The notes beneath the pieces were generated by a model. That model had not been told where the DNA came from. It saw only the letters and a program-made list of their open reading frames with translations, and made no database searches. The position numbers and the translations under genes were made by a program. A stretch of 64,000 nt of DNA from Bacteroidaceae bacterium (GTDB lineage Bacteria > Bacteroidota > Bacteroidia > Bacteroidales > Bacteroidaceae), in assembly GCA_024401165.1 (NCBI GenBank), contig JAKSLN010000001.1:1446-65445 (forward strand), in the 5' to 3' direction. How positions within the stretch are numbered: the stretch's first letter is position 1; each line of letters starts with the position of its first letter. Positions 35,614 to 62,831 of this stretch are shown piece after piece.

Positions 35614-35614
35614 A

Positions 35615-36778: not shown

Positions 36779-36792
36779 TCTTCCTTTTTTTT

Positions 36793-36851: not shown

Positions 36852-36853
36852 TC

Positions 36854-42315: not shown

Positions 42316-42371
42316 TTTCTTAGTTTACAATTCTTTTAAAGCCCTACGTTGAGGAGGTTAGGAAGAAGCAT

Positions 42372-45300
42372 CTAATATTTCGTATCGCGCAATGGTTGCA
42401 GCGAATTCTTCTTTCCGATAACCTTCTCCTCGGTCATACCCGAAGCCATACCCTTCGACGAGGCACCAGCAGGTCCCTGCCACCAGTTACCCTGGCAATT
42501 ACCGTCGGTGGCATTGACAAGGTCAGAGAGAGTGTTCTGGTACTTAGAGTAACCAATGATGCCACCCCATGCTGTGTGAGGGAGTTCGTCTTTTACTTGC
42601 CATGACACCCAACTGGTACAGTCGGAGATGTTCAGACTCGGATCATACACGCCCTTCTTGTTCGTACCGCCTACGATACCTCCATAATATACATTCGAGC
42701 CTTGCACAGCCAATTCGTCTTCTGTCTCGTTGAACTGCTGGCGGTGGTAGGTACAGCGTAGGATAGTCGCCTTGGCAGCTGAGTTTACCAAACCACCTAC
42801 GAAATAAGTCTGTTGATTACCAGAACCTTCGGGTACGGCAATGCGAACATCCACGTCGCTCTTGCAGTCCTCAATGGTAGCGCCATCGTATGCCCATACT
42901 ACAAGTCCTCCGCTGGCAGTTGATTTCACGAATGCTCCGTCGCTCGACCTCACCTTGATGTTACTGAGCACGGCCTTGTCGCCAACAACGGCGTATGCTA
43001 AGGGAGCACGTGCTGGAAGTAGCTCTGCATTGGTCTCTCCATCTTTTTTTGGCATGGCCACAATGGGTTTATCGAGTTGGAGAACAAGGTCGTAGACGTG
43101 ACTCTGAATATTGCTGAACAGCATCTTGGCATTCTCTGTACCCGTTAGTGTGATGGTCTGTTCGTTGCCATCAAGTTCACAGAGCAGGTTACCCCTTGCG
43201 CTTCCCGTACCCTGATCCTGAACGCTCAGATTCCATGTATCATCAACAGAGAAACTACTAGCCAATCGATAACGGCTGACAGTATTGTTGTATGAACTTT
43301 CTGATACGAGTTTATGAAGTTCTGCCTGTGAGTCCAGAACCTGATTGTAGCAATCCTCCTCCAGACGGGCATTGGTAATATCGCTGCCACCTACTACGGG
43401 ATTCTTTACTTTCGTCGGCCATTCATTGCCACTGGTTGTCAAATCTTGATTGCCGCCCTTAGCATAAAGGATATTTCGAAAACGATCTGCATTCTGCAAC
43501 AGCGTGATACCATAATTGTAGGTATTGTTGGTGAGCTTGCCTTCAGCCCTGCCGACGATACCACCACCGACCACCTTGCTGCCTCCATCGATGCGGGCAT
43601 TGACACCACACTGGTCGATGACGGGCTGTGAAGCGACATCAGGTACAGACTGTCCATTCTCGATTTTTGTGGGATAGAGCATCTCGGCAGCAATACCGCC
43701 AATCCAAACATCATCATTTTCGCTTGGATTATAGACAGGCAATGAGGACATACAGGCATGGATGGTACCACGATTTGTAATGACGAGACCGGCACGGGTG
43801 GCCTTTCGCTCCGTCTCACCTTGCTCCACTGTCACACGGTCTATCGACCCCAGGTTCTCCTCCGCAATGGCGCACTCTATCTCAGGGTTAGTTATACCGT
43901 CCTTGTCAGCTATCACAACCGTTCCATTGACAATACTTCCCGATACGGAGATCTTATCAAACAAGCGATTGTTGGTTGTGATGGTGGCACCAGCTAGTTT
44001 TAGGGTCATGTTAAGCGAATACTCAGAAGGGTCCCAACCCGCAGGATAGATCGGCTCGTTGTCATTCTTAGGAGTATATCCGTCCTTATAGGTTGGCTGA
44101 TATCCATCATCATCAGGGCTTTTACCACTGGCATCCTTCACCATGTTCTTCTTGTTGATCATGGCTCCGGTGACAGCCTCGTTGAGATTTAGGTTCAGCG
44201 GGATGATAACGGCCACGTTGCCTGGTTTGTTTTTAGCAGGGTTAGTCAGGAACTCTATCAAATCGGCTTTGTCGCTTATCGGTTCAGGGTCGGCAGCCTG
44301 GCCGAAGTCGTCGCAGATACTACTGAATGGCCAGTCCTCCCAATCCACTACGTAGGCCGTGATCAGGATCTTACGGGTATCCGTACTGAGCGTCACCTCA
44401 AGGATGAGGTGCTTACCCTCAGTGAGGTTATAGCGTGTCTTCACAACCTCATTCTCTGCATCAGGGGCAGAAGAGAATTCCCTGTCGTTAGCTGCATAGA
44501 ACGAGAACTTCATACCTGAGAGATTGATGGCCAGCATCTTCTGTTCGGTCATATTGCTACCCTCCGTATAGTCGTGAGGCTCCACGATAGCATCGTAGCA
44601 AGCGGTAGTGACAGTTTCTTTTTGGGGGAACTGGTTCGTGGCCTCATATTCACACTCGTAACTTCCAAGCAGAGGGGTAACCGTGGTAGACTGGTTATTC
44701 TTGTCGTAGCTGAATATGTCTATATGGATATTCTGGGGAGTGAGGACGTCATTGTACTTAATCTGTTCACGCTCCACACCCTCACCAGCCTTCAGCAGCA
44801 CGGTAATGCGCGAACGCTTGTGGCGCATGAAGAGAGGAACCTTCTTCCAGTGCTCCACGAGCTGGGTCTCAGACATATTATTATCAGGTAGTCCCCATAA
44901 CTTGTTGGCAGCGTACCACTCTTTGGCGGTGAGGTAATTGAGGCCGTCAAGGTCGCGAACAGGAGCGCCAGCACCTTCATTCAGGGCATCATCCCATCCA
45001 GGCACATAGCCATAGCCCTCAATGCGGTCTTGTTTGAAAAATTTCTCTGCGGTCGACTGGTCAGACTTTCCCGTTGGATTACCATTCCTATCGTCATCCC
45101 CGATTTTCTCTGTAGAGTTGCTCGAGACTGCATGGAAGGCATACTTCTTCACGTTGCTGGGCCAATACAAGAAGCTACCATCTTCCTCCAGCGTGCCATA
45201 GTCGTCGTAGGTGGTTACATTATCGACGGTCTTCTTCGTTGGATTATAGGTAGCAGAGGCAATCTTGGTGGCGTTACCCTCCTCGTACATGTCCACATCA

Positions 45301-45521
45301 AAGACATAGTCATCCTCTACACGTTCGAAGCGATTGATGTTCTCCCAATACTCCGCCTTGGCATCAGCACGTGTTGCCACCTGTGGCACCTGCGCGCTGA
45401 ACGATATCTCGTCGCCGGCATTGATGTCCACATCGATGTCGGGGACAATGCCCAGTTTGTCCGAGCATCCGGCACATACAGCCAGTAGTGTTATATATAG
45501 TATGTATCTAAATCTACTCAT
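42372..45521 (-). CDS. Fimbrillin-family lipoprotein fused to a GLUG-like beta-helix module (candidate tip adhesin, 1049 aa)
   Basis: AVCAGC|SDK, PQVATR|ADAK, LFMRHKRSRITVLL, AYVVDWEDW, then GGIAAEM, GGGIVGRAEG, GGLVNSA, GGIVGGTNK and GGIIGYSK. Confidence 0.7.
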   Translation of the reverse strand: MSRFRYILYITLLAVCAGCSDKLGIVPDIDVDINAGDEISFSAQVPQVATRADAKAEYWENINRFERVEDDYVFDVDMYEEGNATKIASATYNPTKKTVDNVTTYDDYGTLEEDGSFLYWPSNVKKYAFHAVSSNSTEKIGDDDRNGNPTGKSDQSTAEKFFKQDRIEGYGYVPGWDDALNEGAGAPVRDLDGLNYLTAKEWYAANKLWGLPDNNMSETQLVEHWKKVPLFMRHKRSRITVLLKAGEGVEREQIKYNDVLTPQNIHIDIFSYDKNNQSTTVTPLLGSYECEYEATNQFPQKETVTTACYDAIVEPHDYTEGSNMTEQKMLAINLSGMKFSFYAANDREFSSAPDAENEVVKTRYNLTEGKHLILEVTLSTDTRKILITAYVVDWEDWPFSSICDDFGQAADPEPISDKADLIEFLTNPAKNKPGNVAVIIPLNLNLNEAVTGAMINKKNMVKDASGKSPDDDGYQPTYKDGYTPKNDNEPIYPAGWDPSEYSLNMTLKLAGATITTNNRLFDKISVSGSIVNGTVVIADKDGITNPEIECAIAEENLGSIDRVTVEQGETERKATRAGLVITNRGTIHACMSSLPVYNPSENDDVWIGGIAAEMLYPTKIENGQSVPDVASQPVIDQCGVNARIDGGSKVVGGGIVGRAEGKLTNNTYNYGITLLQNADRFRNILYAKGGNQDLTTSGNEWPTKVKNPVVGGSDITNARLEEDCYNQVLDSQAELHKLVSESSYNNTVSRYRLASSFSVDDTWNLSVQDQGTGSARGNLLCELDGNEQTITLTGTENAKMLFSNIQSHVYDLVLQLDKPIVAMPKKDGETNAELLPARAPLAYAVVGDKAVLSNIKVRSSDGAFVKSTASGGLVVWAYDGATIEDCKSDVDVRIAVPEGSGNQQTYFVGGLVNSAAKATILRCTYHRQQFNETEDELAVQGSNVYYGGIVGGTNKKGVYDPSLNISDCTSWVSWQVKDELPHTAWGGIIGYSKYQNTLSDLVNATDGNCQGNWWQGPAGASSKGMASGMTEEKVIGKKNSLQPLRDTKY

Positions 45522-45526
45522 TCTCC

Positions 45527-47431
45527 TTAGTTTGTCGATGTGCTATTATCGATGATACCACTCGTTCCGTAATTCAAGTCGTCAGACAACTGCCATCCGT
45601 CGATTACCGCACGGATAAAGGCAATGGTACCACGTCGAAGTTCGAAGTCATATACATAACGATAACCGCTTTGCAGGTTTTTCAGCGAATGACCACGGTC
45701 ATCGATGGTGATGGCATACGTGGCTACATGCTTAACACCAGCTTTCGTTTCTTCATCCTCTTCATAGTCGTCTTCCTTCCATGTGATGCGGATGGCTTGC
45801 AACTGTCCGAAGGCAATGGCATTAAACGACCGCAGCGAAGTCAAAGGTTTTGCATCATCGTCCATCTTAAACATGTTAAACGATGTGCCGTGCTCGTTAT
45901 CCTTCAGTTGCTCTGCCGTAAATTTGCTCTTCACTACCGGGTCGTATGTGGGCGGAATCTGCGTACCGTCTTTATTGATGTTGGTGAAGACATAACCCTT
46001 CTCGGTGACGCCGAGGAGCTCTACGCTAAGAATATTCTCAGGTTTGATGTCGGGGGTATTCTCACCCTTCATGAGGTTGACCTGAATCTGCGAGAACTGA
46101 TGCTTGAAGTACAGACGCACACGGTTAGCCTCTTGTGTAGCACCCGTTGGTTTCATCTTCGTGTAGGCAATAAGAGGGTCGGGCTGTTCGTTAATGCTAT
46201 TAATCTCGTATGTTCCAGGAGCATTCTTTATGGGCTTTCGGGTAAGGTCAAAGACATTGGCTGGAGCAACCTCAATGACGTCTTCAATTTTTTTCTTTTC
46301 ACGCAGTTGGTAAACCAGAATCTTGTTGAAATCCACCAGTTTCCCTTCTGCATCAAAGGCATCTGTCTTGTAAGCAACCCACCATCTACCATTGTGGAAA
46401 GTACCTTCTGCGGTTTCCTCCTCATCCGAATATAAGGACTCTTGCTTCAAGTCCTTCTCAAGGGCAACCTTCTGCTCGTCAGTCAGTGTCGAGGATTTTA
46501 TAAGGTCGATAACCTTTTTCTGCGTATCCTCAATGGTTTCTTTAGTAATAGTCGGACTACTATAATAACCAGAAATGGGGAAATGATCTTCATATTCGGC
46601 GGTCATGGGATAGGTGGTCGTTGTCTCAAATTCCTCGAACTTCAATACGTCAATGGTCGACGGAACGGTATAAGGTTCTGGAACTGGCTCGTATGGGTGC
46701 TCAACTACCCATTTTTCAGGGTTTTCCTCGTATGCCTTGTAAGCATCAAATTTGTCTTTATCGAAATCTGGGTTCGGCTCCTTATCCGTTGCAAACACCA
46801 TCTTCTTGTAGTTATAAGTCTCCCATGACGGTTTAGTTCCGGTCTTTGTCTTCTTCTCGCCATCGGCTTCGGGATACATGAAGAGCGCACGCGACCTTGG
46901 CAGAGTATTTCCATCCTTGTCTGTGTTGGTGGACAATTCCCATTTGTTCGTTTTCAGCAGATTGAAGTCAGTATAGGCCAGGAAGATGTGGTCCAGACGG
47001 TTACGCCAGTAGAAGAACTGGGCATTAGGGTCGAAGCCATAATCTTTGTAGTTTGCATCCTCGCGATCCGCCGGTGTCAGGTCTCTAAATTCTCGATTCC
47101 AGTAGACCGAGTTACCCTCTTTGTTATTGACACGCAACCACGAAGTGATAGGTGTATTCTCTACATCAAAGGCACTTGCGTCCGTGTCAGTCGCCTTAGC
47201 ATGGTAGTACATCTTGCACACGAAACGTCCTTCCTGTTCCATATAGGGAATGACGGCACGCGTAGTTGTATTGCCGCTGTTACCCGATGAAAATAACACC
47301 AACTGCCCGATGCCCTTGTCCTGATTCAGTGGGTTCTCTGTCCCCGGCTGAGCTAAGTCGAAACTATCGGAGCATGCTGTCACTACCAGCATGGCTACCA
47401 TCAGGGATAATATGTATTTCAGTTTTTTCAA
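45527..47431 (-). CDS. Fimbrillin-family lipoprotein with about 300-aa insertion; apparent TTG start
   Basis: (M)KKLKYILSLMVAMLVVTAC|SDS, GNTTTR|AVIP, LYFKHQFSQIQVNL, AVIDGWQL. The first codon (47431-47429) is TTG. The next ATG would remove the signal n-region. Confidence 0.65.
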   Translation of the reverse strand: MKKLKYILSLMVAMLVVTACSDSFDLAQPGTENPLNQDKGIGQLVLFSSGNSGNTTTRAVIPYMEQEGRFVCKMYYHAKATDTDASAFDVENTPITSWLRVNNKEGNSVYWNREFRDLTPADREDANYKDYGFDPNAQFFYWRNRLDHIFLAYTDFNLLKTNKWELSTNTDKDGNTLPRSRALFMYPEADGEKKTKTGTKPSWETYNYKKMVFATDKEPNPDFDKDKFDAYKAYEENPEKWVVEHPYEPVPEPYTVPSTIDVLKFEEFETTTTYPMTAEYEDHFPISGYYSSPTITKETIEDTQKKVIDLIKSSTLTDEQKVALEKDLKQESLYSDEEETAEGTFHNGRWWVAYKTDAFDAEGKLVDFNKILVYQLREKKKIEDVIEVAPANVFDLTRKPIKNAPGTYEINSINEQPDPLIAYTKMKPTGATQEANRVRLYFKHQFSQIQVNLMKGENTPDIKPENILSVELLGVTEKGYVFTNINKDGTQIPPTYDPVVKSKFTAEQLKDNEHGTSFNMFKMDDDAKPLTSLRSFNAIAFGQLQAIRITWKEDDYEEDEETKAGVKHVATYAITIDDRGHSLKNLQSGYRYVYDFELRRGTIAFIRAVIDGWQLSDDLNYGTSGIIDNSTSTN

Positions 47432-47444
47432 AGTTCTATATTTT

Positions 47445-47507
47445 AACCGTTCAATCGATTAATCGTTAATATCCCCTCCCCATAGAGGGGGAGGGTTAGG
47501 GAGAGGG
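47445..47507. repeat. Composite intergenic element: AATCG/TTAA module + C/G hairpin + canonical G-quadruplex motif
   Basis: AACCGTTCAATCGATTAATCGTTAAT (47445-47470). Hairpin CCCTCCCC-ATAGAG-GGGGAGGG. GGGGGAGGGTTAGGGAGAGGG (47487-47507) gives four G3+ tracts with loops A, TTA and AGA. Confidence 0.65.
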
Positions 47508-47512
47508 TATCT

Positions 47513-49780
47513 TTAGTCCCACTCAAGCGTAGCCTTACCGCCACCTTCCACCTTTTTCCACTCTTCAACCACAGCTCGGAAGGTGATGGTCTCCTTACCC
47601 AGTTCGATGGTGTAGGTGTAATGTACGCCAGGCTTCCATTCTGTAATGTACTCGTCTCCGGTTTGGCCGTTGGCTGTAACCTCTGTTATGCACTTGTTGA
47701 GCTGTGCCTTATAGACTGTTCCATCTGCCAGCGTGATGATTACCATGGCTTCATTCTTGATGGTCTGAGGGGTGATGATATAATTTCTCAGTGTCACTTC
47801 TTCCTTGTAGGTCGTTGTTATGTCATTCTCTTTAGATGCGAAGAATCCCATACGAGATGGTATGGCTCCTGCATCCTCGCTGAAGGTCTTCTCCGTGACT
47901 GCTGAAGGTGTGATTTTACCCTCGAAGAGTTCAATTGTTCCGCCGGTTGCAAGGTTTGTCAACTGGATGGTAGCACCATGGAGGTCGAGATGAGACGAGC
48001 CGTCACTGTTGCCAGCAAGGGCATCCACCAGATTGAAGGTTATCTGCGACATGGCATGATAAAATTTCAACGGCACATGACCCGTGCGAGGGCTTACTGC
48101 CTGACCTTCTGTATATCCATTTGCTTCTGCCGTTGTTCCCCACAGGGCATCACGACCATTCTCCATGATGAGTGACTCATTTTCTGGCGTGGCCGTCTTA
48201 TCGTCTTTTGCACCTGAGAGGGCGCGGAAGTACTGCTTGCCTATACCCTGCCAATAAATGGTGGGGTTGTATGACCACTCATGCGTTGTCGAATTGTATT
48301 TCAGATGAGTAGCAAGGGGACCATAGTTCGGAGTTGAATTGTTAGAGTCGAATGCTGACATGTATACATCAAAACCATCATGCTGGAGGGCGTCTACTAT
48401 GGTACCATTGTTGTCCTTGACATCATTTTCAAAAATGATCTCACCAACACTTTCTGCTTCAACTTCTTCCCAGTCGAGGATGGTGGCATACACTGTAACC
48501 TTGGTTTTGCTGACAGTAACGTTCAGTTTATAATGTACGCCTGAGCGCATCTGATGTCCCTGTCCCGTTGGAATAGGGCCTCCAGTGGCACGTGTTCTTG
48601 GCCTTGCCTGTGCTGTACCGTTGTCCACATCTTCAACGTCATTGTCAAGTTGATGTCCCCAACCTGTGCCATCAGACTTCGCTTCCAGCATAGCCTCAGT
48701 GACAAGGATGTCATAGGTATTGCCAGCCATGTCGGTGATGGTGGCGAGGGTGTTACCCACACTCAGGATGGAGGGAACGACAATGGCCTCGTATGCACGA
48801 CTGGGTTTCTCATTCGTTTTGGTAACGTTGCCAGGTTTCATCTTGATGTTGCCCTTACTTCCCGCGTCTTTCGAATATTCGAGTTCGGCAGTTGGTGCCT
48901 TTGCCGTACACTTGATGCGTACATCCTTGAGTTCAACCTTCGTGTCTTCTTCTCCGGTCTTGAAGTCATAATCAGCCGCAAAACCTTCACCGGCAATGAC
49001 GTTGATGGTCACCTTGCTCATGGCATGGGTGTAAGGGATGATGAGGTCGCCATGGTCTCCATCTACATTTTTATCTGCGTGAGCATACTTTACGGGTTTT
49101 TGCTCTGGAGACCAGAGAAGATCGCTCTTCTGGAAGTTGGTTGTTCCAGTGGTGCCCGATTGGTCTTTCTGGACAGTCCAACCGATCACGCCTGTTTCTT
49201 CGATCAATGCAGTTGTTGGCTCTCCACCATTATAACAGTATCCATAGTACGACTGCAGGTAGTTATTGGCACTATGAAGATCGGTCTTTGACGATGTTGC
49301 ATCGCTGAAGTCATCCCAATAGAGTCCATTAACGTCTTGATTCTTCGTATTTTTGTATGTTACTGATAATCCTGATGCCTGTTGGGTATTGGTAGAGTTG
49401 ATTTCAAGCTCTGAACCAAAAGGCATAATATTCATGGTTTTGCTCCATGCTTTGTATCCTGTACACGAAAGATTAATGAGACGAGGAGCCTGATCGGCTA
49501 TTTTTGATGTACGCTTGTTAGCTTCCTCTGTAGTAAATCCTCCATTCCACTCGACGTGTCGAATGTAGGCAATCATTTGGTCACCATTGTCAAACTCATT
49601 ATCCTTTGCACGCGTCTTCGCAGCCTTGCCTTTGGTATTGAGCAGGGCAGTCACGGTGAGCGGAGTCTTTGTACCATCGCCAGAGAGAGTTTGCTCCGTA
49701 TAGTGGTCATAGTCCGCACAAGCGGCCAGTGCCAACACGGGTAAAAGGAGCAGTATCTTATGTATCTTCATTCTTCTCAT
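47513..49780 (-). CDS. Double-module fimbrillin-family lipoprotein (755 aa)
   Basis: LALAAC|ADYD and KAAKTR|AKDN. Module 1: PYTHAMSKVTINVI ... ATILDWEEVEAE. Module 2: KFYHAMSQITFNLV ... AVVEEWKKVEG. The ATG shares one base with the stop of the upstream gene (TAATG). Confidence 0.7.
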   Translation of the reverse strand: MRRMKIHKILLLLPVLALAACADYDHYTEQTLSGDGTKTPLTVTALLNTKGKAAKTRAKDNEFDNGDQMIAYIRHVEWNGGFTTEEANKRTSKIADQAPRLINLSCTGYKAWSKTMNIMPFGSELEINSTNTQQASGLSVTYKNTKNQDVNGLYWDDFSDATSSKTDLHSANNYLQSYYGYCYNGGEPTTALIEETGVIGWTVQKDQSGTTGTTNFQKSDLLWSPEQKPVKYAHADKNVDGDHGDLIIPYTHAMSKVTINVIAGEGFAADYDFKTGEEDTKVELKDVRIKCTAKAPTAELEYSKDAGSKGNIKMKPGNVTKTNEKPSRAYEAIVVPSILSVGNTLATITDMAGNTYDILVTEAMLEAKSDGTGWGHQLDNDVEDVDNGTAQARPRTRATGGPIPTGQGHQMRSGVHYKLNVTVSKTKVTVYATILDWEEVEAESVGEIIFENDVKDNNGTIVDALQHDGFDVYMSAFDSNNSTPNYGPLATHLKYNSTTHEWSYNPTIYWQGIGKQYFRALSGAKDDKTATPENESLIMENGRDALWGTTAEANGYTEGQAVSPRTGHVPLKFYHAMSQITFNLVDALAGNSDGSSHLDLHGATIQLTNLATGGTIELFEGKITPSAVTEKTFSEDAGAIPSRMGFFASKENDITTTYKEEVTLRNYIITPQTIKNEAMVIITLADGTVYKAQLNKCITEVTANGQTGDEYITEWKPGVHYTYTIELGKETITFRAVVEEWKKVEGGGKATLEWD

Positions 49781-52700
49781 TACTTATTCACGTAAACCTT
49801 GATTGTTTTGCCATTTGACATCTTCATGATGTTCATGCCCTTCTGGAGACCATTCTGCTTGCGGCCCTGTAGGTCGTAGACTGCCTCCACATCGAAATCG
49901 TCATTTTGGGCAGAACCGATGCCATCTACTTCGTCCTCGTCAACAATATGGATGTTGAGTACACTCGCCTTAGCTGTACTTCCTGTAATTGGTTGGATGT
50001 ATGCACGGAAGGCAGGAACGGTCAGAGAGGTCTTAGCCTGATGGAAGGCATCGCTGTTGAGGTAGTAGATACCTGACAGGCCATCGGTTATCGTTTTTTT
50101 GGTAAACCTACCCACCAGACCATTTGCCTTCAAGGCATCATCATTATCTTCATCTGTCATAGTTGTGACACTGGCCATCGCACTTTCGATAGTGAAGTTT
50201 GTCTTACGACTGTCGAGTTGGAATATGACGGGAGTGCCAGCGGCAATATTACCTTCTATATTCTCAATATTAAGGACTCCATTAGTCGCATCGATACTGG
50301 CAACTTTATAGAATGTCATGTCATCTTGAGTCGTAGTAGAGAATGAGAAGGGCAAGCAGAGTGTACCATACTCCGTACCCGCGGCACCCATGCCGCTGTT
50401 GCGAACATACTTAGCAGTGGCAATGGTATAGGGCTCGGAAGGAGCTGTCCAGTTTGTACCGTCATTGATGACAATCTCGTTTATCAAGTAGAACAAATGG
50501 TTGCTCTTTGGATTAGCAGCTACCGTGTAGCCTTTTTTACAAATGGCCTGAGCAATCTTCTTGCTAAAATAGTCGCCGGTGACGAAACCATCTGTAAGGT
50601 CCGTAGAACCTGTGTAAGCAATTGGTTTGTCGTCATCATTAGTTCCACAAACGAATGTGCCTCCCGTAACTTCGGGCAATGTCGAGTATCCTGCAATCTC
50701 AACGCCATGGGTCTTACCCGTGAAGGTTCCGCCAGTGATGATCACCTTTCCGGCGTTGGCATATACAGCCTCTGTACCACTTATCTTACCACCTTCGATG
50801 GTCAATTCACCTGATGACTGCCAGTCAATACCCTTGCCGTTCGTGGATGTGACAGTGGCGGTATTTGCTACAGAGAGTGAACCTGCGGTGGCTTCAATAG
50901 CATTCGATGCATTTGATGCATTTGATGTGTTCTGCACCTTGCCAGCCACGGTGAGATTTCCGCCGTTCAATGCTATTGTGTTTGCCCCGGTAGAAGTGAA
51001 GTTCGTCTTCTGATCGGTAGTTACCGTGCCTTGGGCTACAGTTAGGCTCACACCTGCCGTGGTGACAGTCATGTTCTGAAGAGCAACGGTTCCGTCAGAA
51101 ATATTGATGTTGATACCATCCTTTTCAGATGTGATACCACCATTCTTGAGGGTTACGCCCGCACCCACCGTCACAGCTGCACCCGAACCTTGATTGCCAA
51201 TGATTGAATAGTCATCCATATTCAGGATGAGGGCTTTGTTGAGTTCTACAGGACTGGTTACAGTCAGGTTGTCAAGAAGCATTACTTCGGCACCAGCAGC
51301 TACAGCACCGATGGCATCGCTAATCTTTGCGTATTGGTTGCCATTTGCTGTGGTCTTTGCTATCATGCTGACATCGCCCGTGAAACGAGGCTTGTTGCCT
51401 TCTGAGTCAACGATGCAAGCAATGATACCGGTAACAGTTGCGCTGTTGCTGATATTGACTCTGCCAACACCCGGGAAATTGGTGTTCTCGACCAAAGCAA
51501 TGGCATAGCCGTTGGTTGAGGGAGCATCATCACTTGCTCTATGCGTTGTGCTACCTGTTGCAGTAACGATTGCTCCAGCATCTACGGTGAGATCACCGCC
51601 CTTCATCTCGATGGCACCGGCAGTCGTTCCGCTACCGATTACCTTACCACCACCGTCAACAACGAGATCGCCAACATTTGCCTGGTAGATGGCAACTGCA
51701 TCTGTGGCTGTCACTTCTGCACCAGAATAAACATGAATCTTGTCCACCTCATCGGCAGTCACGATAGCACTATGACCTTCCGTGGTAACCGTGGTAACCT
51801 TACCCTTCACATCAAGCGTCTCACGAGTACGGGTACCAGAGAGCAATACACCCGGTGATGACGAGGAAGAAACCTCGACGTTATTACTTACAAGAAGTGA
51901 GACGGCACGGTTTGTACCTTCGTCACTACCTACCTGGATGGTGGCAGGAGCAGCCCCAGTGCTTGTGACGATACCGTTTGTCATCGTCACATGACCATGG
52001 CTTACCTGCACGGCAGCACATCCGTTACCAGTCAAAGTATAAGTATTGAGGTCGAAGGTATAGGTCTTCTCGGCATCCATCACGAAGGGCGTTGATTGCG
52101 TGAGGCTCATGAGCAGCTTCACAATACCTTCTTGGGGCACAATCTTGATTGCATCGTTCAGAGAGAAGTATTGATCGTTACCGATGGCAGCTAACTTAGT
52201 GGTGAACTTTCCTGTATATGAAGGATTGAAATCAGTGACATCCGAATCATGCAGTTGGGCAACAGCACCTATGACTTCGGCAGAACTGTCAATTGACACA
52301 TTGGTAACTTTCTGTCCATTAGTGTTATTCTGAACTACTGCTACGGCATATCCAACTGATGAGCAACCAGTATCGTTTGCTACATGAAGAGGAGTGCCTG
52401 TAGCAATAATGTGTGCTGTAGACGTTACTGCAAGACTACCACCCTTCATCTCAATGCCACCAGCACCCTTCACTGTAACTGTACCATCGATGGTAACAGT
52501 GCCTGCTAGTGAATTATAGATTGCGACATTGTCCGAAGCGTTGATGTTTGCCGTAGAGCCTATAGAGATTGTTGCTGTTGTCGGGCCGGTCGGACCTTGT
52601 CCGGCAATAGCAGGCTTATTTTTAGTACTTACATTTCCTTTTACGGTGAGACTTGCATTAGTGTTTTGGCCTTCAACAACAACACCATAGCATTCGTCTG

Positions 52701-54012
52701 CAGAGATGGTGACGTTCTGCCCTACCGTTAGTGACACATCAGCGCTCTCGTCACTACCCACTCGGATAACAGACTTATCGTTGTCTGTAATGGTGGGAAC
52801 GGTGATCTTGCCACCTTCTACTGATGACGTAATAGTCACATTGCCACTCTTAACCCACAGCGCACGCTGCCCGTCACTCGTGATGGTATGGCCATTGAGA
52901 TCGAGGGTATAGACCTGCGATGTTTCAAAGGTTGACGAGATGCTGAAGTTGTCCATTAGTTTGATGGTACTCTCTGCAGGTGCTTCGCTCATGGCACGCT
53001 CCAGAGTGGTGTACTGACCGACGGTTTTTTCGACACCATTATCCGTTGTAGTCACCATTACCTTCATCTGAAGACCATACTTGTCGAAAGTAATATCTGG
53101 AGCTCCGTCCTTCTTATCCGAATCCTTCACTACGGCAACTTCGCCCGTGATGGTAGCCTTCGGACTAATGTTCACGTTGCTAACACCGGCATACGCTCCG
53201 CTTTCTACAATGGATATGGCATAGCCAATTGTTGAAGGATCGTTCTCATTTGCCGTATGCTGAGGAGTTCCTGTTGCTTTAATCATAGCTTTCTCGTCTA
53301 CGACCAACTGGCCACCCTTCATCTCGATGCCGCCTGCACCTTCTACTGAACCAATGACAGTGAGCACACCTGCTTGTGGATGGTAGATTGCCACATTACT
53401 GCTTGTCTTGATTTTTGCGTTCTCGCCTACCGTGATAGTCGTACCTGCATATTCAGGCAGACCATTACCTGCGATGGCGGCTCGCCCAACAGTATTCACG
53501 TTACCATTCACAATCAACGTTTCTTCAGTCTTGTTGCCAAAGACCGTAACGCCATAGCAAGTCTCAACCGTAGTACTGATGGTTACGTTCTCACCGATAG
53601 TAAGTTTAACAAAGGTCTTATCCCCGGTATATCCACCGGGACCACCTTCTCCCACACGGATCACAGAATTGTCAACGGGCACACTACCGTTAGCAATGAT
53701 GTAAGCAGGATTATCAGGATTATCAGATTTGAAAAGGACCTCTCCTTTAGTAACTTGGAATGCGCGGCATCCCTCACTCGTTATGGTATGGCCATTGAGG
53801 TCGATAATTACATCACTTTTAATAACAAGTGTTTTCGAAAGTGTGATGTCTGCTGTCAACTTGAGCTCTTGGTCACTTCCCGTCAGCAAAGACTTTAACT
53901 GTTCCGCGTTAGTTACCTCCACAGCTTCCGCCCATGCCACGCTGGCGGTGGCCATCAGGCAGAGGGTGAGGAAGGTTCTCCTAATTCTATCTATAAATTT
54001 TGTTCTTCTCAT
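49780..54012 (-). CDS. Secreted beta-helix repeat adhesin-like protein with T9SS C-terminal sorting domain
   Basis: Type I signal MRRTKFIDRIRRTFLTLCLMATASVAWA|EA. The ORF-track start at 54030 is TTG; the first ATG is at 54012. Three about 283-300-aa repeats are anchored by DLNGHTITS (x2) and DLNTYTLTG, and by GAGGIEMKGG (x2) and AGAIEMKGG. The C-terminus VYDLQGRKQNGLQKGMNIMKMSNGKTIKVYVNK resembles the Por_Secre_tail domain. Confidence 0.7.
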   Translation of the reverse strand: MRRTKFIDRIRRTFLTLCLMATASVAWAEAVEVTNAEQLKSLLTGSDQELKLTADITLSKTLVIKSDVIIDLNGHTITSEGCRAFQVTKGEVLFKSDNPDNPAYIIANGSVPVDNSVIRVGEGGPGGYTGDKTFVKLTIGENVTISTTVETCYGVTVFGNKTEETLIVNGNVNTVGRAAIAGNGLPEYAGTTITVGENAKIKTSSNVAIYHPQAGVLTVIGSVEGAGGIEMKGGQLVVDEKAMIKATGTPQHTANENDPSTIGYAISIVESGAYAGVSNVNISPKATITGEVAVVKDSDKKDGAPDITFDKYGLQMKVMVTTTDNGVEKTVGQYTTLERAMSEAPAESTIKLMDNFSISSTFETSQVYTLDLNGHTITSDGQRALWVKSGNVTITSSVEGGKITVPTITDNDKSVIRVGSDESADVSLTVGQNVTISADECYGVVVEGQNTNASLTVKGNVSTKNKPAIAGQGPTGPTTATISIGSTANINASDNVAIYNSLAGTVTIDGTVTVKGAGGIEMKGGSLAVTSTAHIIATGTPLHVANDTGCSSVGYAVAVVQNNTNGQKVTNVSIDSSAEVIGAVAQLHDSDVTDFNPSYTGKFTTKLAAIGNDQYFSLNDAIKIVPQEGIVKLLMSLTQSTPFVMDAEKTYTFDLNTYTLTGNGCAAVQVSHGHVTMTNGIVTSTGAAPATIQVGSDEGTNRAVSLLVSNNVEVSSSSSPGVLLSGTRTRETLDVKGKVTTVTTEGHSAIVTADEVDKIHVYSGAEVTATDAVAIYQANVGDLVVDGGGKVIGSGTTAGAIEMKGGDLTVDAGAIVTATGSTTHRASDDAPSTNGYAIALVENTNFPGVGRVNISNSATVTGIIACIVDSEGNKPRFTGDVSMIAKTTANGNQYAKISDAIGAVAAGAEVMLLDNLTVTSPVELNKALILNMDDYSIIGNQGSGAAVTVGAGVTLKNGGITSEKDGININISDGTVALQNMTVTTAGVSLTVAQGTVTTDQKTNFTSTGANTIALNGGNLTVAGKVQNTSNASNASNAIEATAGSLSVANTATVTSTNGKGIDWQSSGELTIEGGKISGTEAVYANAGKVIITGGTFTGKTHGVEIAGYSTLPEVTGGTFVCGTNDDDKPIAYTGSTDLTDGFVTGDYFSKKIAQAICKKGYTVAANPKSNHLFYLINEIVINDGTNWTAPSEPYTIATAKYVRNSGMGAAGTEYGTLCLPFSFSTTTQDDMTFYKVASIDATNGVLNIENIEGNIAAGTPVIFQLDSRKTNFTIESAMASVTTMTDEDNDDALKANGLVGRFTKKTITDGLSGIYYLNSDAFHQAKTSLTVPAFRAYIQPITGSTAKASVLNIHIVDEDEVDGIGSAQNDDFDVEAVYDLQGRKQNGLQKGMNIMKMSNGKTIKVYVNK
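51331..53910 (-). repeat. Three tandem intragenic repeats of about 850-900 nt (plus a degenerate fourth downstream)
   Basis: The DLNG anchor codons start at 53802 and 52902, and DLNT starts at 52053. The segments are similar at nucleotide level, e.g. CACTCGTTATGGTATGGCCATTGAGGTCGA (about 53775-53804) versus CACTCGTGATGGTATGGCCATTGAGATCGA (about 52875-52904). Confidence 0.7.
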
Positions 54013-54036
54013 ATTGAGTATTGCTTTCAAATTATG

Positions 54037-56328
54037 TTAGAACCAGATGTTGTCGCTGGCTGTGACGGTTACCCAGTCCTTGAGGGTCGCGGTGACCTTG
54101 ATGGCGGTCTTTGAGAGAGTGAGGATGTACTTATAGTGAACACCACTCTCCCATTGTCCGTTAGGTGCAACCTTTTCTGATGTGGAACCAGACTTCAGTA
54201 TTGGATTAACGTCTGCATAATAGACGTCGGTTGTAGCAGGAGTCTTAGTTTTTTGTTCATCTGTTAAAGCGGCGAATGCATCATCATCTATTGAGGTGCC
54301 TTTTGCTGCATTATACTCTGCTGCATTTGCATACAGTACGGCATCATCATTCGTTACCGTAATCTTAAAGCGAAGGTTGTTCGCTTTCTGTGCTTCTTCT
54401 GTACTATAAGTAAGAACTTGAGGGACAATAGCACTATGACGTTTGAGTTCATTGCCGGAGCCTTCAACGACATCAAGAGTATAGCTACCCTTATCGCCAG
54501 AAACACTTACGGAACCATCAGAGAGTTTAACCTCGCCACTATTATATACATTAACAAGTTCTACAACTGTATTCGCATTGATGTTCACTTTGGCTGCATC
54601 TGGACTATCTACAGTTTTCAGTTCCACCTCCACCTGCGACATGGCATACTCGAAGTTCAGGTGAATGAGGCCTTCTTTATTATTGGCGTGAGTACCATCT
54701 TCGGCAGCATCTGTTGCACAGATACCCTGCTTATTATGCCCAGCTTTACAGGTTTCGTCTAGAGTTCCATCCTCTTTGCGAGGCATTCCAATCATGAGGT
54801 CTGACGGGTAATAACCTTGCTTGTAAGCCACGTTTGCAACTTCAACATAACTTGCCTTAACCTGTGATGATGTTGGACCAAGTTGCTGTGGTTCCGCACT
54901 GGTATCCTTGCTGTCTACCACTGGCCAAACACCACGGAAGAAGTAATGAGTCTGATGGTCAGGCCAATAGAGTTGAGGAGACATTGTGTACTTGCTGCTT
55001 GCATAGCTTACAGTAGAACTATTGTCCTCTGTGAGGCCATTGATGTAAGAGCCTGTTACATTCTTGCTACGATAAAGCGTGAAGTCTTTACCGAAATTTG
55101 TACCATCCTGACCATAGCACTGGCTGAAGTTGATCTTAGGAGCCTCCTCGTCTGCCTCTACATCCTTCCAGTCTACAATTGTAGCCTCCACCTTGATGTC
55201 CGTTTGATTGACTGTAATCTTCAATTTATAGTTCCAACCATGGAGCAACGCATTATCCATGTTGGTAGGATATCCTGTGGTTGCAGTTTCATCGATTGCT
55301 TTTTGAATAGCAGCATTCAGCTCTTTTGCTGTAACGAAATACGTATTACCGTCTGCTGTGAGGGTCAGAATGTCGGTGCCATTATCAAAAGTGTTTCCAG
55401 GAAAAACCAATGCGTCGTAGGTGGCAGTAGTATTGCCGGCACCTCCATCAGACCTATGCATATCGATGTTTGCTGTGGATGTGGGCGATGAACTCTTATT
55501 TACCACATTCACGTTTCCTGTATAATAGAAACCAAGCAGTTTGACAGTAGGATTTCCTACAAACTTACTATCCACAAAACCAAGACCTGCTGTCAGTTCA
55601 ACCGTAATCTTAGTCATGGCATGCGTGAAGATGAGAAGGTTGCTGGCTGTCGAAGAACTGTTCTTCAGGTCGTTCATCCAGTCATCGAACTTGTATGTGC
55701 CATCAGCGGATGCCGTGATGTTATTGCTAGTCAACAGGTCCACATTTGCCCAACCACCAGTTTGGTTAATTACTCCACTAGTTGGGGTACCAACACTCCA
55801 AGGTTGACTGGTCCATGAAGATATTGTTGGTGCAGTTGATTCTCCTTCCACACAAGCGGCATAGATGGTCAGACCTTTGTCACGACCGTTACCGACATGC
55901 TGTTCCTCATCAGATGCATTCTTCAAGGACATGTTTGCGGGATCGGCTGTACCATAGTCATCCCAATAGCACTTCTCAGTTCCTTCGAATTTTACTTCGT
56001 TATGCTTATCATCCTTTACCTTATTAGTAGTGATCGTAGCACTAGTGGACTTAATGATAGACTCTGGATCGTTCCCCAACCACGTACCATCAATGCGAAG
56101 GGCCATCTTGGTCACACTTTTGAAAGGAGTATGATTGCTGTGACCTGGGTCTGCGGCACGTGTTGTGACACTGGTTCCTCCATCCCTCACACCAGCCATG
56201 AGGACAATCTCATTGTCCTCATCACCAACAGTGAAGTTTGCACGAATAGCAGTCTCCTCTACACTATTTACACATGCAGAAAGAAGAAAAACTGATGCAA
56301 TAAAATTTATATAAGGTCTTATCTTCAT
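54037..56328 (-). CDS. Double-module fimbrillin-family lipoprotein (763 aa)
   Basis: FLLSAC|VNS, SVTTR|AADP, IFTHAMTKITVELT ... ATIVDWKDVEADEE; NFEYAMSQVEVELK ... TATLKDWVTV. Confidence 0.7.
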   Translation of the reverse strand: MKIRPYINFIASVFLLSACVNSVEETAIRANFTVGDEDNEIVLMAGVRDGGTSVTTRAADPGHSNHTPFKSVTKMALRIDGTWLGNDPESIIKSTSATITTNKVKDDKHNEVKFEGTEKCYWDDYGTADPANMSLKNASDEEQHVGNGRDKGLTIYAACVEGESTAPTISSWTSQPWSVGTPTSGVINQTGGWANVDLLTSNNITASADGTYKFDDWMNDLKNSSSTASNLLIFTHAMTKITVELTAGLGFVDSKFVGNPTVKLLGFYYTGNVNVVNKSSSPTSTANIDMHRSDGGAGNTTATYDALVFPGNTFDNGTDILTLTADGNTYFVTAKELNAAIQKAIDETATTGYPTNMDNALLHGWNYKLKITVNQTDIKVEATIVDWKDVEADEEAPKINFSQCYGQDGTNFGKDFTLYRSKNVTGSYINGLTEDNSSTVSYASSKYTMSPQLYWPDHQTHYFFRGVWPVVDSKDTSAEPQQLGPTSSQVKASYVEVANVAYKQGYYPSDLMIGMPRKEDGTLDETCKAGHNKQGICATDAAEDGTHANNKEGLIHLNFEYAMSQVEVELKTVDSPDAAKVNINANTVVELVNVYNSGEVKLSDGSVSVSGDKGSYTLDVVEGSGNELKRHSAIVPQVLTYSTEEAQKANNLRFKITVTNDDAVLYANAAEYNAAKGTSIDDDAFAALTDEQKTKTPATTDVYYADVNPILKSGSTSEKVAPNGQWESGVHYKYILTLSKTAIKVTATLKDWVTVTASDNIWF

Positions 56329-56340
56329 GTTTCTTCTCCA

Positions 56341-58761: not shown

Positions 58762-58960
58762 GTATTGATGTTTTTTCTATTATATTCACTGGCAGCTGGG
58801 GCTGCGGTGGTTTCTTGTTGATGCGGTTTCAGTCTGTATCCGTACCTGGAGGTCTTTGTTACTGCTGCGGAAACTGAAATTTTCTGCTGCTGGATTTCTT
58901 TTTTCCGCGCAACACGGAACTTCAGATCGCCGTGCGTGGTTTCGTCCTTGGCTTGTCTTT

Positions 58961-59019
58961 TCACCTTCTCACCCCTCTCCCAGTCCTTTTGGGAAGGACT
59001 AGGAGTGGAGAGATGGTGA
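58961..59019. repeat. Long imperfect inverted repeat (about 60-nt stem-loop) just after the stop of the 807-aa gene
   Basis: Core stem AGTCCTT / AAGGACT (58982-58988 / 58994-59000), extended by TCACC / GGTGA and C-rich/G-rich arms (CACCCCTCTCC / GGAGTGGAGAG). No T-run follows on the sense (minus) strand. Confidence 0.55.
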
Positions 59020-59038
59020 AGGGGTTTCGCGTGTTCCT

Positions 59039-61462: not shown

Positions 61463-61503
61463 ATCTTATGTTTTTTTATTATCAATAATATATTGCGTTT
61501 CTA

Positions 61504-62814: not shown

Positions 62815-62831
62815 TTTCAGTATGTACCGAA

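What the first reader, a model, noticed from the sequence alone, without database searches (positions are those of the whole stretch)
49780..54012. A T9SS-sorted beta-helix repeat protein embedded in the pilus operon and translationally coupled to a fimbrillin
What the sequence shows:
- This is the only non-lipoprotein in the array. It has a type I signal peptide (AWA|EA).
- It carries three about 283-300-aa repeats plus a degenerate fourth. They are rich in short G-x-[IV]-x-[IV] rungs typical of right-handed beta-helix adhesins.
- The final about 80 aa (about 49783-50022) end in VYDLQGRK...GMNIMKMSNGKTIKVYVNK, which resembles the type IX secretion C-terminal domain.
- Its TAA stop shares a base with the ATG of the next fimbrillin (TAATG at 49778-49782).

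Established knowledge: type V pilins use the lipoprotein export route. The P. gingivalis accessory subunit Mfa5 (VWA domain) carries a T9SS CTD and needs T9SS to be incorporated.

Inference: this protein could be an Mfa5-analogous, T9SS-delivered pilus accessory adhesin with a different (beta-helix) payload. That would link two export systems within one operon. The repeats are similar at nucleotide level, so the copy number may vary by recombination.
Basis: partly seen in the sequence, partly recalled or inferred. Interest (0 to 1): 0.72.

Follow-up and report, generated by a model that had tools for sequence, protein, structure and literature searches.

The report
Beta-helix adhesin inside pilus operon
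A 1410-residue secreted beta-helix protein with a shortened tail resembling a type IX secretion signal sits in the middle of a type V pilus gene array, in a position conserved across many gut Bacteroidales; this resembles the Mfa5 arrangement of Porphyromonas with a different payload, and the tail itself is a very common sorting-type signal that current annotation models miss.

Summary
Window 49780-54012 (minus strand) encodes a 1410-aa protein with a type I signal peptide (AWA|EA). It has three 277-300-aa repeats plus a degenerate fourth. Its TAA stop overlaps the ATG of the next fimbrillin gene.

AlphaFold (pLDDT 91.7) and Foldseek show right-handed beta-helices. The closest adhesin match is the Lactobacillus reuteri SRRP binding region.

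The C-terminus fails the curated type IX secretion (T9SS) sorting-domain models, PF18962 and TIGR04183. However, a profile of the last about 60 aa, built from relatives, hits only gingipain sorting domains in the PDB beyond proteins carrying the same tail (E about 1e-3, aligned to the last residue). hhalign gives 94.8% probability. TIGR04183 is the only family that recurs in weak matches (7 of 41 tails).

The tail is a compact, roughly 47-aa version of that sorting domain. It occurs in 72,916 protein clusters, almost always at the very C-terminus.

The gene's position between fimbrillin-like lipoprotein genes is conserved in relatives down to about 35% identity.

Two claims fail: the repeats are not similar at DNA level, and copy number does not vary.

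Verdict: partly supported, a new variant of the Mfa5 theme. T9SS dependence and attachment to the pilus remain untested.

The parts
53929..54012 (-). Type I (Sec) signal peptide, aa 1-28, MRRTKFIDRIRRTFLTLCLMATASVAWA|EA
   Evidence: Read directly from the sequence. The AWA end is conserved in homologs. Two homologs lack the internal Cys, and the residue before it is Leu, so it is not a lipobox.
53038..53928 (-). Beta-helix repeat R1 (aa 29-325); starts with a capping helix AEQLKSL
   Evidence: Self-comparison of the protein. AlphaFold model of aa 27-625, pLDDT 91.7. Foldseek matches to right-handed beta-helices.
52138..53037 (-). Beta-helix repeat R2 (aa 326-625)
   Evidence: 41.5% identical to R1, E 3e-53. 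Covered by the AlphaFold model.
51298..52137 (-). Beta-helix repeat R3 (aa 626-905)
   Evidence: 34-38% identical to R1 and R2. The third AIEMKGG motif is at aa 800.
50623..51297 (-). Degenerate fourth repeat R4 (aa 906-1130); lacks the IEMKGG/YHPQ motifs
   Evidence: 26% identical to R3, E 1e-4; no significant match to R1 or R2.
50431..50622 (-). Short connecting region (aa 1131-1194)
   Evidence: Conserved in the family at 53% mean identity. Not modelled.
49993..50430 (-). All-beta domain (aa 1195-1340; motifs GTLCLPF, AGTPV, LVGxF, VPAFRAYI) that usually precedes this kind of tail in other proteins
   Evidence: AlphaFold pLDDT 88. No PDB fold match, best E 0.14. No Pfam or NCBIfam hit. Shared with small proteins, including some carrying BspA-type LRR, MBG_2 or Big_2 domains.
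49924..49992 (-). Linker (aa 1341-1363) with the strand VLNIHI and an acidic stretch ending in D1363
   Evidence: Least conserved region of the protein, 36% mean identity. The only segment of the model with pLDDT below 50 is aa 1363-1371, DGIGSAQND.
49783..49923 (-). Compact CTD-like tail (aa 1364-1410), GIGSAQNDDFDVEAVYDLQGRKQNGLQKGMNIMKMSNGKTIKVYVNK; putative sortase-type cleavage at D1363|G1364
   Evidence: Most conserved region of the protein, 69% mean identity. The tail profile hits gingipain CTDs 7pq4, 5hfs, 5ag8 and 5ag9 at E 7.7e-4 to 0.013, and nothing else beyond three proteins carrying the same tail. hhalign probability 94.8%. TIGR04183 is weakly hit by 7 of 41 tails. A [TEDN][GAS][IVLM] motif is enriched 36-56 aa from the C-terminus.
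49778..49782 (-). TAATG stop/start overlap with the next gene
   Evidence: A 1-nt overlap is also seen in L003, and gaps of 5-6 nt in L001 and L002.
47513..49780 (-). Downstream fimbrillin-like lipoprotein (ORF G, 755 aa)
   Evidence: PF13149 Mfa_like_1, E 9e-33. Lipobox LAAC and TRA at residue 56. An ortholog lies directly downstream of the beta-helix gene in 13 of 80 genome loci.
54037..56328 (-). Upstream fimbrillin-like lipoprotein (ORF E, 763 aa)
   Evidence: Lipobox LSAC and TRA at residue 56. Orthologs in L001-L003 carry PF13149.
33042..63974 (-). Whole co-oriented array: 12 pilin-like lipoprotein ORFs plus the beta-helix gene. Gaps run from -4 to 81 nt, except 277 nt between ORFs C and D. 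The 5' end is cut by the window edge.
   Evidence: No intergenic terminator-like site on the minus strand in the scanned part, 44500-64000.

Best explanation
The gene encodes a cell-surface binding protein that belongs functionally to a type V pilus-like adhesin locus.

Shown:
- It has a Sec type I signal peptide and is not a lipoprotein. Its 11 complete pilin-like neighbours are lipoproteins.
- Its body is three-plus-one right-handed beta-helix modules of the 'pectate-lyase-like adhesive' kind.
- It ends in a conserved all-beta domain followed by a tail of about 47 aa.
- That tail is a compact relative of the C-terminal part of the T9SS type A sorting domain.
- Its position between fimbrillin genes, often with overlapping or nearly abutting stop and start codons, is conserved across distant relatives.

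Inferred:
- A PorU-type sortase removes the tail near D1363|G1364.
- The beta-helix body is then displayed on the surface. It is either anchored to surface lipopolysaccharide beside the pili or carried by them as an accessory subunit, as Mfa5 is in Porphyromonas gingivalis.
- There, its repeated beta-helix modules bind a ligand, probably a glycan.
For: - Fold: the AlphaFold model of R1+R2 has pLDDT 91.7. The top Foldseek matches are PL6 lyases, the L. reuteri SRRP adhesin (probability 0.99), antigen 43 and phage tailspikes. Homologs P0035 and P0052 pass the Pfam cut-off for PF20585.
- Tail, sequence evidence: the tail profile gives PDB hits only to three proteins with the same tail and then to four gingipain CTD entries (E 7.7e-4 to 0.013), aligned to the last residue. 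hhalign gives 94.8%. TIGR04183 is the only NCBIfam family that recurs, in 7 of 41 tails with best E 0.0014, and in 2 of 38 C-terminal modules.
- Tail, conservation and position: the tail is the most conserved part of the protein. In 148 of the 150 best library hits the match ends on the final residue.
- Tail, cleavage site: a PorU-type T/E/D/N|G/A/S motif lies 36-56 aa from the C-terminus in 80 of 96 tails, against 35.5 +/- 4.8 in shuffles. In this protein it falls in the only low-confidence loop of the model.
- Literature: the last 22 aa of the HBP35 CTD are sufficient for secretion, and the terminal lysines are required (PMC10202324). KxxxK is described as a CTD signature (PMC9477747). Mfa5 carries a CTD (PMC7835359).
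- Synteny: the gene sits in the same position in relatives of 43-50% identity (L001-L003) and in single-repeat relatives of 34-35% identity from Prevotella sp. MAGs (L084, L085). In 15 of 80 genome loci a fimbrillin gene lies directly downstream.
Against: - The protein and its tail score nothing against PF18962 or TIGR04183, even at E<=10.
- The tail has 3-4 predicted strands, not the 7-strand Ig-like sandwich of a canonical CTD, and no YPNP-type N-terminal motif.
- The significant PDB matches are to closely related gingipain sequences, so they amount to about one independent hit. This protein's own tail against the RgpB CTD is not significant by BLASTP.
- I could not check whether this MAG encodes a T9SS. 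Only some Segatella clades were reported to have one (PMC11514259), and Segatella copri genomes carry many such tails.
- Nothing shows physical contact with a pilus. The same C-terminal module is mostly found away from fimbrillin genes (65 of 80 loci).
Confidence: 0.55

Rival explanations
1. The tail, together with the all-beta domain before it, is a surface-anchoring or sorting module that no longer depends on T9SS. It might, for example, bind lipopolysaccharide or the outer membrane, or direct proteins to vesicles. Its likeness to the CTD would then reflect shared ancestry only.
For: - It fails the curated CTD models.
- It is much shorter than a CTD.
- The tail nearly always comes with its own upstream all-beta domain.
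- It is abundant in Segatella copri, where a T9SS was detected only in some clades (PMC11514259).
Against: - The retained part corresponds to the segment reported as sufficient for T9SS secretion (PMC10202324).
- The match is in register to the last residue and has terminal lysines.
- A PorU-type site is enriched upstream.
- Three PDB enzymes carry the tail without the all-beta domain.
- Apart from MAG records of one project with doubtful labels, all genomes found belong to Bacteroidales.
Confidence: 0.2
2. The protein is exported and displayed on its own. It is a free or lipopolysaccharide-anchored adhesin that is only co-transcribed with the pilins, and it is not part of the filament.
For: - It has no pilin features: no lipobox, no Arg maturation site and no Mfa_like_1 domain.
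- Most proteins with the same C-terminal module are not next to fimbrillin genes.
- Canonical type A cargo is attached to A-LPS (PMC10202324).
Against: - The mid-array position is conserved across relatives as distant as 34-35% identity.
- Stop and start codons overlap or nearly abut.
- The Mfa5 precedent exists (PMC7835359).
Confidence: 0.3
3. The beta-helix modules are enzymes, such as a polysaccharide lyase, hydrolase or esterase, rather than binding modules. The locus would then pair adhesion with glycan cleavage.
For: - The best Foldseek matches are PL6 alginate lyases.
- Each full repeat keeps invariant polar residues (YHPQ, IEMKGG, a His, GYAIxIVE) across the family.
Against: - TM-scores are low (0.16-0.2) and sequence identity is about 10%.
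- No lyase or hydrolase family was hit.
- The only Pfam family reached by close full-length homologs is an adhesive domain.
- The closest solved adhesin, SRRP, has the same fold without known catalysis.
Confidence: 0.15

Closest known systems
Mfa5 of the Porphyromonas gingivalis Mfa1 fimbria (type V pilus accessory protein with a T9SS CTD)
   Same: - A large non-lipoprotein encoded within a cluster of lipoprotein pilins.
- It has a Sec signal peptide and a C-terminal T9SS-type signal.
- It has adhesin-type domains that are also found in Gram-positive surface proteins (PMC7835359).
   Different: - No von Willebrand factor A (VWA) domain or MIDAS motif. The payload is three-plus-one beta-helix modules plus an unannotated all-beta domain.
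- The tail has about 47 aa and fails the CTD models.
- The gene lies mid-array, not last.
- The array has 12 large pilin-like genes (387-1049 aa for the complete ones) instead of four.
T9SS type A C-terminal sorting domain (PF18962 / TIGR04183), e.g. the RgpB CTD (PDB 5hfs)
   Same: - It lies at the extreme C-terminus.
- It has a DxxGR strand, a G-x-[YN]-[IV] strand and a terminal K-x-[IV]-x-K strand, aligned to the last residue.
- A T/E/D/N|G/A/S site lies upstream.
- Its cargo types are carbohydrate-active enzymes, LRR adhesins and Ig-like repeat proteins.
   Different: - It lacks the N-terminal strands and motifs.
- It has two deletions relative to RgpB.
- It has 3-4 strands instead of 7.
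- It scores below all curated cut-offs.
Lactobacillus reuteri serine-rich repeat protein binding region (PDB 5nxk) and PF20585, the pectate-lyase-like adhesive domain
   Same: Right-handed parallel beta-helix used as an adhesin module (Foldseek probability 0.99). Close homologs pass the PF20585 cut-off.
   Different: - About 10% sequence identity.
- Here the module is tripled.
- The host is Gram-negative and uses a different anchoring route.
- The query itself does not reach the Pfam model.
CapGH10/CBM89 (PDB 7jvi), rumen arabinanase ARN2 (4kca) and a GH20 hexosaminidase (8bbl)
   Same: They carry the same compact tail at their C-termini (E 1.4e-8 to 7.8e-5). 7jvi also has a beta-helix binding module and comes from a Bacteroidaceae MAG (PMC8810776).
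   Different: - They are enzymes not linked to pilus genes.
- They lack the all-beta domain before the tail.
- The passages of the CBM89 paper that I searched do not link this protein to T9SS.

Membership tests
T9SS type A CTD (PF18962 / TIGR04183) | Scores above the curated cut-off of the family models | tested here: not met
   No hit for the whole protein, the last 100 aa or the last 106 aa at E<=10 or E<=1. Among relatives' tails, TIGR04183 is hit only below threshold: 7 of 41 with best E 0.0014, and 2 of 38. PF18962 is hit by 1 of 38 at E 0.28.
T9SS type A CTD (PF18962 / TIGR04183) | Located at the extreme C-terminus of a protein with a cleavable Sec signal peptide | tested here: met
   The tail ends at the last residue. 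In 148 of 150 best library matches the match ends on the last residue. Signal peptide AWA|EA.
T9SS type A CTD (PF18962 / TIGR04183) | Conserved C-terminal motifs, including the terminal lysines (KxxxK) | tested here: met
   The family profile aligns with gingipain CTDs to the last residue (E 7.7e-4 to 0.013; hhalign 94.8%). Most homologs end in KVYVK, KVMVK or similar. This protein ends KTIKVYVNK, where the last two lysines are spaced KxxxxK. Motif definitions are taken from PMC10202324 and PMC9477747.
T9SS type A CTD (PF18962 / TIGR04183) | Seven-strand Ig-like beta-sandwich of about 70-100 aa with N-terminal motifs A and B | tested here: not met
   The AlphaFold model shows three strands after the putative cleavage site and one before it. 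The tail is 47 aa. No YPNP-like motif was seen.
T9SS type A CTD (PF18962 / TIGR04183) | Found only in genomes that encode the T9SS core | tested here: inconclusive
   The C-terminal module is found in Prevotella, Segatella, Paludibacteraceae, Sodaliphilus and other Bacteroidales. Some MAG records of one project carry other, doubtful labels. The T9SS content of these genomes could not be queried. Segatella clades are reported to differ in T9SS content (PMC11514259).
T9SS type A CTD (PF18962 / TIGR04183) | Secretion and tail removal depend on T9SS (PorV, PorU, Sov) | not testable with these tools
   Needs genetics and proteomics.
Mfa5-like pilus accessory protein | Encoded within a type V pilin gene cluster | tested here: met
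   Flanked by ORFs that carry PF13149 or have a lipobox plus a TR[AST] site. Synteny is conserved.
Mfa5-like pilus accessory protein | VWA domain with MIDAS motif | tested here: not met
   No VWA family hit in Pfam or NCBIfam. The body is made of beta-helices.
Mfa5-like pilus accessory protein | Physically incorporated into the fimbria in a T9SS-dependent way | not testable with these tools
   No experimental data exist for this uncultured lineage.
Right-handed beta-helix adhesive domain (PF20585 / PF13229) | Right-handed parallel beta-helix fold | tested here: met
   AlphaFold pLDDT 91.7. All top Foldseek matches are right-handed beta-helices.
Right-handed beta-helix adhesive domain (PF20585 / PF13229) | Scores above the Pfam cut-off | tested here: inconclusive
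   The query has no hit. Homologs P0035 (26.7 bits) and P0052 (35.3 bits) exceed the 24.3-bit cut-off, and the distant relative P0083 hits PF13229.
Type V pilin (FimA/Mfa1 superfamily) | Lipoprotein signal, Arg maturation site and fimbrillin fold | tested here: not met
   No lipobox, no TR[AST] site in the first 110 aa and no PF13149 hit. Its C-terminus is unlike those of the neighbouring pilins.

The most novel reading that the evidence does not exclude
The roughly 47-aa tail, usually preceded by a dedicated all-beta domain, may be a distinct minimal class of type IX secretion signal that current models cannot see. It marks more than 70,000 protein clusters in Prevotella-type gut Bacteroidales. 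In this locus it would deliver a triple beta-helix adhesin to a type V pilus whose pilins travel by the lipoprotein route. Convergence of two export routes on one organelle would then be a general design, not a peculiarity of Porphyromonas Mfa5.
Probability: 0.4. Interest if true: 0.75.

Novelty: new variant of a known kind. Interest (0 to 1): 0.6.

Why it matters
**The pilus locus.** If this reading is right, type V pilus loci of gut and rumen Bacteroidales recruit adhesins that are not pilins and that arrive by a second export route. Until now this was known essentially from one protein, Mfa5. The payload here can differ (beta-helix instead of VWA).

**The tail.** The tail occurs in 72,916 clusters at 50% identity. 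Sixty of its best-scoring full-length carriers do not match TIGR04183 or PF18962 at E<=0.01 and E<=0.001 respectively. Surveys that list T9SS cargo with those models, as was done for Segatella bryantii and Xylanibacter ruminicola (PMC11107044), would therefore be expected to miss most candidate cargo in these abundant gut genera. The missed cargo would include carbohydrate-active enzymes and BspA-type adhesins.

Tried and rejected
- **Whole protein against PDB sequences:** nothing significant.
- **Foldseek of the C-terminal module against the PDB:** no match, best E 0.14.
- **The search for related loci with the 38-sequence alignment:** It was repeated with the 15-sequence alignment.
- **Third homologous-protein search, with the tail profile:** it returned only fragments of 110 aa or less with no annotation, so it was uninformative.
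- **The look-up of encoding contigs with window proteins:** it gave only short contigs or no DNA, so the 5' end of the cluster and the rest of the MAG (including any T9SS genes) could not be seen.
- **The listing of cluster members:** it gave almost no names.
- **Tandem Repeats Finder:** it cannot see periods above 500 nt, so blastn self-comparison was used instead.
- **The protein as a lipoprotein using Cys18:** rejected. The residue before the Cys is Leu, two homologs lack the Cys, and the AWA end is conserved.
- **The tail as a pilus donor strand:** rejected. It occurs on tens of thousands of proteins, most of the sampled ones are not next to pilin genes, and it differs from the C-termini of the neighbouring pilins.
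- **Copy-number variation by recombination:** rejected.

Full report
**1. The gene and its position**

The minus-strand ORF at 49780-54012 encodes 1410 aa. It is 100% identical to the NCBI MAG protein MJZ35_00150, annotated as a hypothetical protein from a 'Bacteroidaceae bacterium'. The ATG at 54012 is supported by homologs that start MRRTKFIDKIRR. The stop TAA (49782-49780) shares its last A with the ATG of the next gene, giving TAATG.

The signal peptide ends AWA|EA. The single Cys lies inside the hydrophobic core and is preceded by Leu. Two homologs lack it, and the AWA end is conserved.

The gene lies in a co-oriented array spanning 33042-63974. Most gaps run from -4 to 81 nt; the exception is a 277-nt gap between ORFs C and D. 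No intergenic terminator-like site was found on the minus strand in the part scanned, 44500-64000.

All 11 complete neighbours have a signal peptide ending in Cys. Nine match the lipobox regex, and B and I were judged by eye. All 11 also have a TR[AST] site at residues 46-72. From my own knowledge, that is where the Arg maturation site of type V pilins is expected. Seven neighbours score above the Pfam cut-off for PF13149 Mfa_like_1, and one more has a sub-threshold hit. The beta-helix protein has none of these features. The first ORF (A) is cut by the window edge; its ortholog in L002 is a lipoprotein.

**2. The repeats**

The motif DLNGHT/DLNTYT/NMDDYS recurs at aa 71, 371, 654 and 931.

| Pair | Identity | E-value |
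|---|---|---|
| R1-R2 | 41.5% | 3e-53 |
| R1-R3 | 34% | 2e-31 |
| R2-R3 | 38% | 6e-36 |
| R3-R4 | 26% | 1e-4 |

R4 shows no significant match to R1 or R2. The description 'three repeats plus a degenerate fourth' is therefore correct.

At DNA level, the best inter-repeat matches are 67.5% over 191 nt and 68% over 123 nt, plus one 34-nt stretch at 91%. All 67 full-length homologs are 1351-1447 aa. Sixty show exactly three GGIEMKGG-type motifs at matching positions. The other seven show two, which at these lengths I read as motif decay, not loss of a repeat. The suggestion of recombination-driven copy-number variation is not supported.

**3. Fold of the repeats**

An AlphaFold model of aa 27-625, built with 16 homologs, has mean pLDDT 91.7 and pTM 0.86. 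Each repeat starts with a short capping helix followed by many short strands.

The top 50 Foldseek matches against the PDB look to be right-handed parallel beta-helices. They include PL6 alginate lyases (E 2e-4), the L. reuteri SRRP binding region (probability 0.99), antigen 43 and phage tailspikes. TM-scores are low, so this assigns a fold class and not a family.

The query has no Pfam hit. Homologs P0035 and P0052 pass the cut-off for PF20585, 'putative pectate lyase-like adhesive domain', and the distant relative P0083 hits PF13229. Single repeats also match proteins that carry SLH or InlB-repeat domains. From my own knowledge these are Gram-positive surface-protein domains, which suggests the repeat is an old mobile surface-protein module.

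**4. The C-terminus**

Neither the whole protein nor its last 100-106 aa match PF18962 or TIGR04183 at E<=10 or E<=1.

The tail is nevertheless the most conserved part of the family, at 69% mean identity against about 53% for the repeats. It also occurs on unrelated proteins.

A 41-sequence profile of the last 62 aa was searched against all PDB sequences at E<=10 and returned seven hits:
- Three proteins with the same tail: hexosaminidase 8bbl, rumen arabinanase 4kca and the capybara xylanase CapGH10/CBM89, 7jvi.
- Four gingipain CTD entries: 7pq4 (E 7.7e-4), 5hfs (1.1e-3), 5ag8 (3.4e-3) and 5ag9 (0.013). All are aligned to their last residue.
- Nothing else.

Further evidence for the relationship:
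- hhalign of the profile against the RgpB CTD fragment printed gives 94.8% probability.
- Among 18,950 NCBIfam models, TIGR04183 is the only family hit by more than two tails: 7 of 41, with best E 0.0014.

The alignment shows the tail as an RgpB-type CTD with two internal deletions and without the N-terminal strands. It keeps the DxxGR strand, the G-x-[NY]-I strand and the terminal K-x-[IV]-x-K.

According to a review (PMC10202324):
- The last 22 aa of the HBP35 CTD are sufficient for secretion of GFP.
- The terminal lysines are required.
- PorU cleaves at T/E/D/N|G/A/S.

A [TEDN][GAS][IVLM] motif lies 36-56 aa from the C-terminus in 80 of 96 non-redundant tails, against 35.5 +/- 4.8 in shuffles. 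In this protein it is D1363|G1364, inside the only segment of the C-terminal model with pLDDT below 50.

Weaknesses of this evidence:
- The gingipain hits are closely related sequences, so they amount to about one independent match.
- This protein's own tail against RgpB is not significant on its own.
- The model shows 3-4 strands, not a seven-strand sandwich.

I conclude that the tail derives from the type A CTD and probably still works as a T9SS signal (about 0.7). It is not a member of the family as the curated models define it.

**5. How common the tail is**

A profile of 30 tails, read against 1.84 billion cluster representatives, gives 72,916 proteins at E<=0.001 and 6,795 at E<=1e-10. 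In 148 of the 150 best, the match ends on the last residue.

Sixty full-length examples have no PF18962 hit at E<=0.001 and no TIGR04183 hit at E<=0.01. Their other domains are those typical of surface proteins: CHB_HEX_C_1/Fn3_assoc (12), BspA-type LRR (4), InlB repeats, Big_2, F5/8 type C, and choice-of-anchor D and J. Their consensus also shows a signal peptide ending in WA and the same kind of all-beta domain before the tail.

That domain (aa 1195-1340 here) is modelled confidently (pLDDT 88). It has no PDB fold match and no Pfam or NCBIfam hit.

In species-representative genomes, the module is found in Prevotella, Segatella copri (several copies per genome), Paludibacteraceae, Sodaliphilus and unnamed Bacteroidales. 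Some MAG records of one project are labelled Lachnospiraceae, Bifidobacteriaceae and so on, yet carry near-identical Prevotella-like proteins. I treat those labels as unreliable.

**6. Link to the pilins**

- Relatives of 43-50% identity lie in the same place. Three Mfa_like_1 genes precede them, and two Mfa_like_1 genes plus two or three large ORFs follow. Spacing to the next gene is a 1-nt overlap or a 5-6 nt gap.
- Relatives with only one repeat of this type (34-35% identity over 41-45% of the query), from Prevotella sp. MAGs, also lie mid-array.
- Of 80 genome loci found through the C-terminal module, 15 have a close homolog of a window fimbrillin directly downstream: ORF G in 13 and ORF C in 2. 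The other 65 do not.

The module is therefore general, and one clade of beta-helix proteins carrying it is fixed inside this pilus-type locus. This conserved linkage is the strongest argument for a shared function. It does not show physical attachment to the pilus.

**7. Comparison with known systems**

The closest system is Mfa5. It is a non-lipoprotein with a T9SS CTD, encoded in the mfa cluster, and its integration into the fimbria is not expected to follow the pilin strand-exchange route (PMC7835359).

| Same as Mfa5 | Different from Mfa5 |
|---|---|
| Genetic embedding in a pilin cluster | Beta-helix payload instead of a VWA domain |
| Sec signal peptide | An extra all-beta domain |
| C-terminal T9SS-type signal | Compact tail that fails the CTD models |
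| Adhesin payload with Gram-positive relatives | Mid-array position and a far larger array |

I file this as a new variant of a known kind.

**8. What remains open**

- Whether this MAG has a T9SS.
- Whether the tail depends on it.
- Where the protein ends up on the cell.
- What the repeats bind, or whether they are catalytic. Each full repeat keeps invariant YHPQ, IEMKGG, His and GYAIxIVE residues.

Noticed in passing
window 49783-49923; PDB chains 4kca_A 640-682, 8bbl_A 849-901, 7jvi_A 806-842: The compact tail occurs in 72,916 clusters at 50% identity, almost always at the very C-terminus. Sixty of the best full-length carriers have no PF18962 or TIGR04183 hit at E<=0.001 and E<=0.01 respectively. 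It is also present in three crystallised carbohydrate-active enzymes. Lists of T9SS cargo built with TIGR04183 would miss it.
   Followed up: partly
window 49993-50430 (aa 1195-1340): A confidently modelled all-beta domain (motifs GTLCLPF, AGTPV, VPAFRAYI) has no PDB fold match and no Pfam or NCBIfam model. It usually sits directly before this tail, and it is multi-copy in Segatella copri genomes.
   Followed up: partly
L084 969-2027 and L085 1016-2143: In the Prevotella sp. versions of the cluster, the first gene encodes a small protein of 352-375 aa with a type I signal peptide. It ends ...YYNLQGMKTTKPVKGQVYIHKGKKTIF, a second protein in the same locus that ends in what looks, by eye, like the same kind of tail.
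   Followed up: no
window 33042-45521 (ORFs I, J, K and M): The large downstream pilin-like lipoproteins (833-1049 aa) have long C-terminal regions with no Pfam hit. By eye, these contain recurring GG[IL]VG / GLUG-like motifs, which suggests further adhesin or beta-helix-like heads fused to pilin domains.
   Followed up: no
window 58762-59038, hairpin 58969-59013: This is the only long gap in the array (277 nt, between ORFs C and D). It holds a 20-nt inverted repeat that is 80% complementary with a 5-nt loop, possibly an internal regulatory or processing site.
   Followed up: no
window 50900-50927: An in-frame 9-nt tandem repeat (GCATTTGAT, 3.1 copies) encodes the NASNASNA stretch within the degenerate fourth repeat. 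It is a possible site for small length changes by slippage.
   Followed up: no
L001 8612-9985: In one relative, an AAA_14/DUF4143 ATPase gene is inserted between the third upstream fimbrillin gene and the beta-helix gene. The adjacency therefore tolerates an insertion.
   Followed up: no
P0009-P0067: About half of the public gene calls for this family start at an internal Met (MAWA..., MATEQ...). This cuts off the signal peptide, so automated localisation predictions for them will be wrong.
   Followed up: no
L023, L031, L042, L043, L055-L058, L063: MAG records from one project (CAV* accessions) are labelled Lachnospiraceae, Bifidobacteriaceae, Opitutae, Sphaerochaetaceae and so on. They carry near-identical Prevotella-type proteins with this C-terminal module, so the labels or the binning look unreliable.
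   Followed up: partly
window 222-1961 and 2001-4000, 12001-14000: A VapE-like/PriCT_2 primase-type gene lies at the left end of the window. Two stretches have about 41% GC against a background of 47-58%. Together these hint at a mobile element unrelated to the finding.
   Followed up: no
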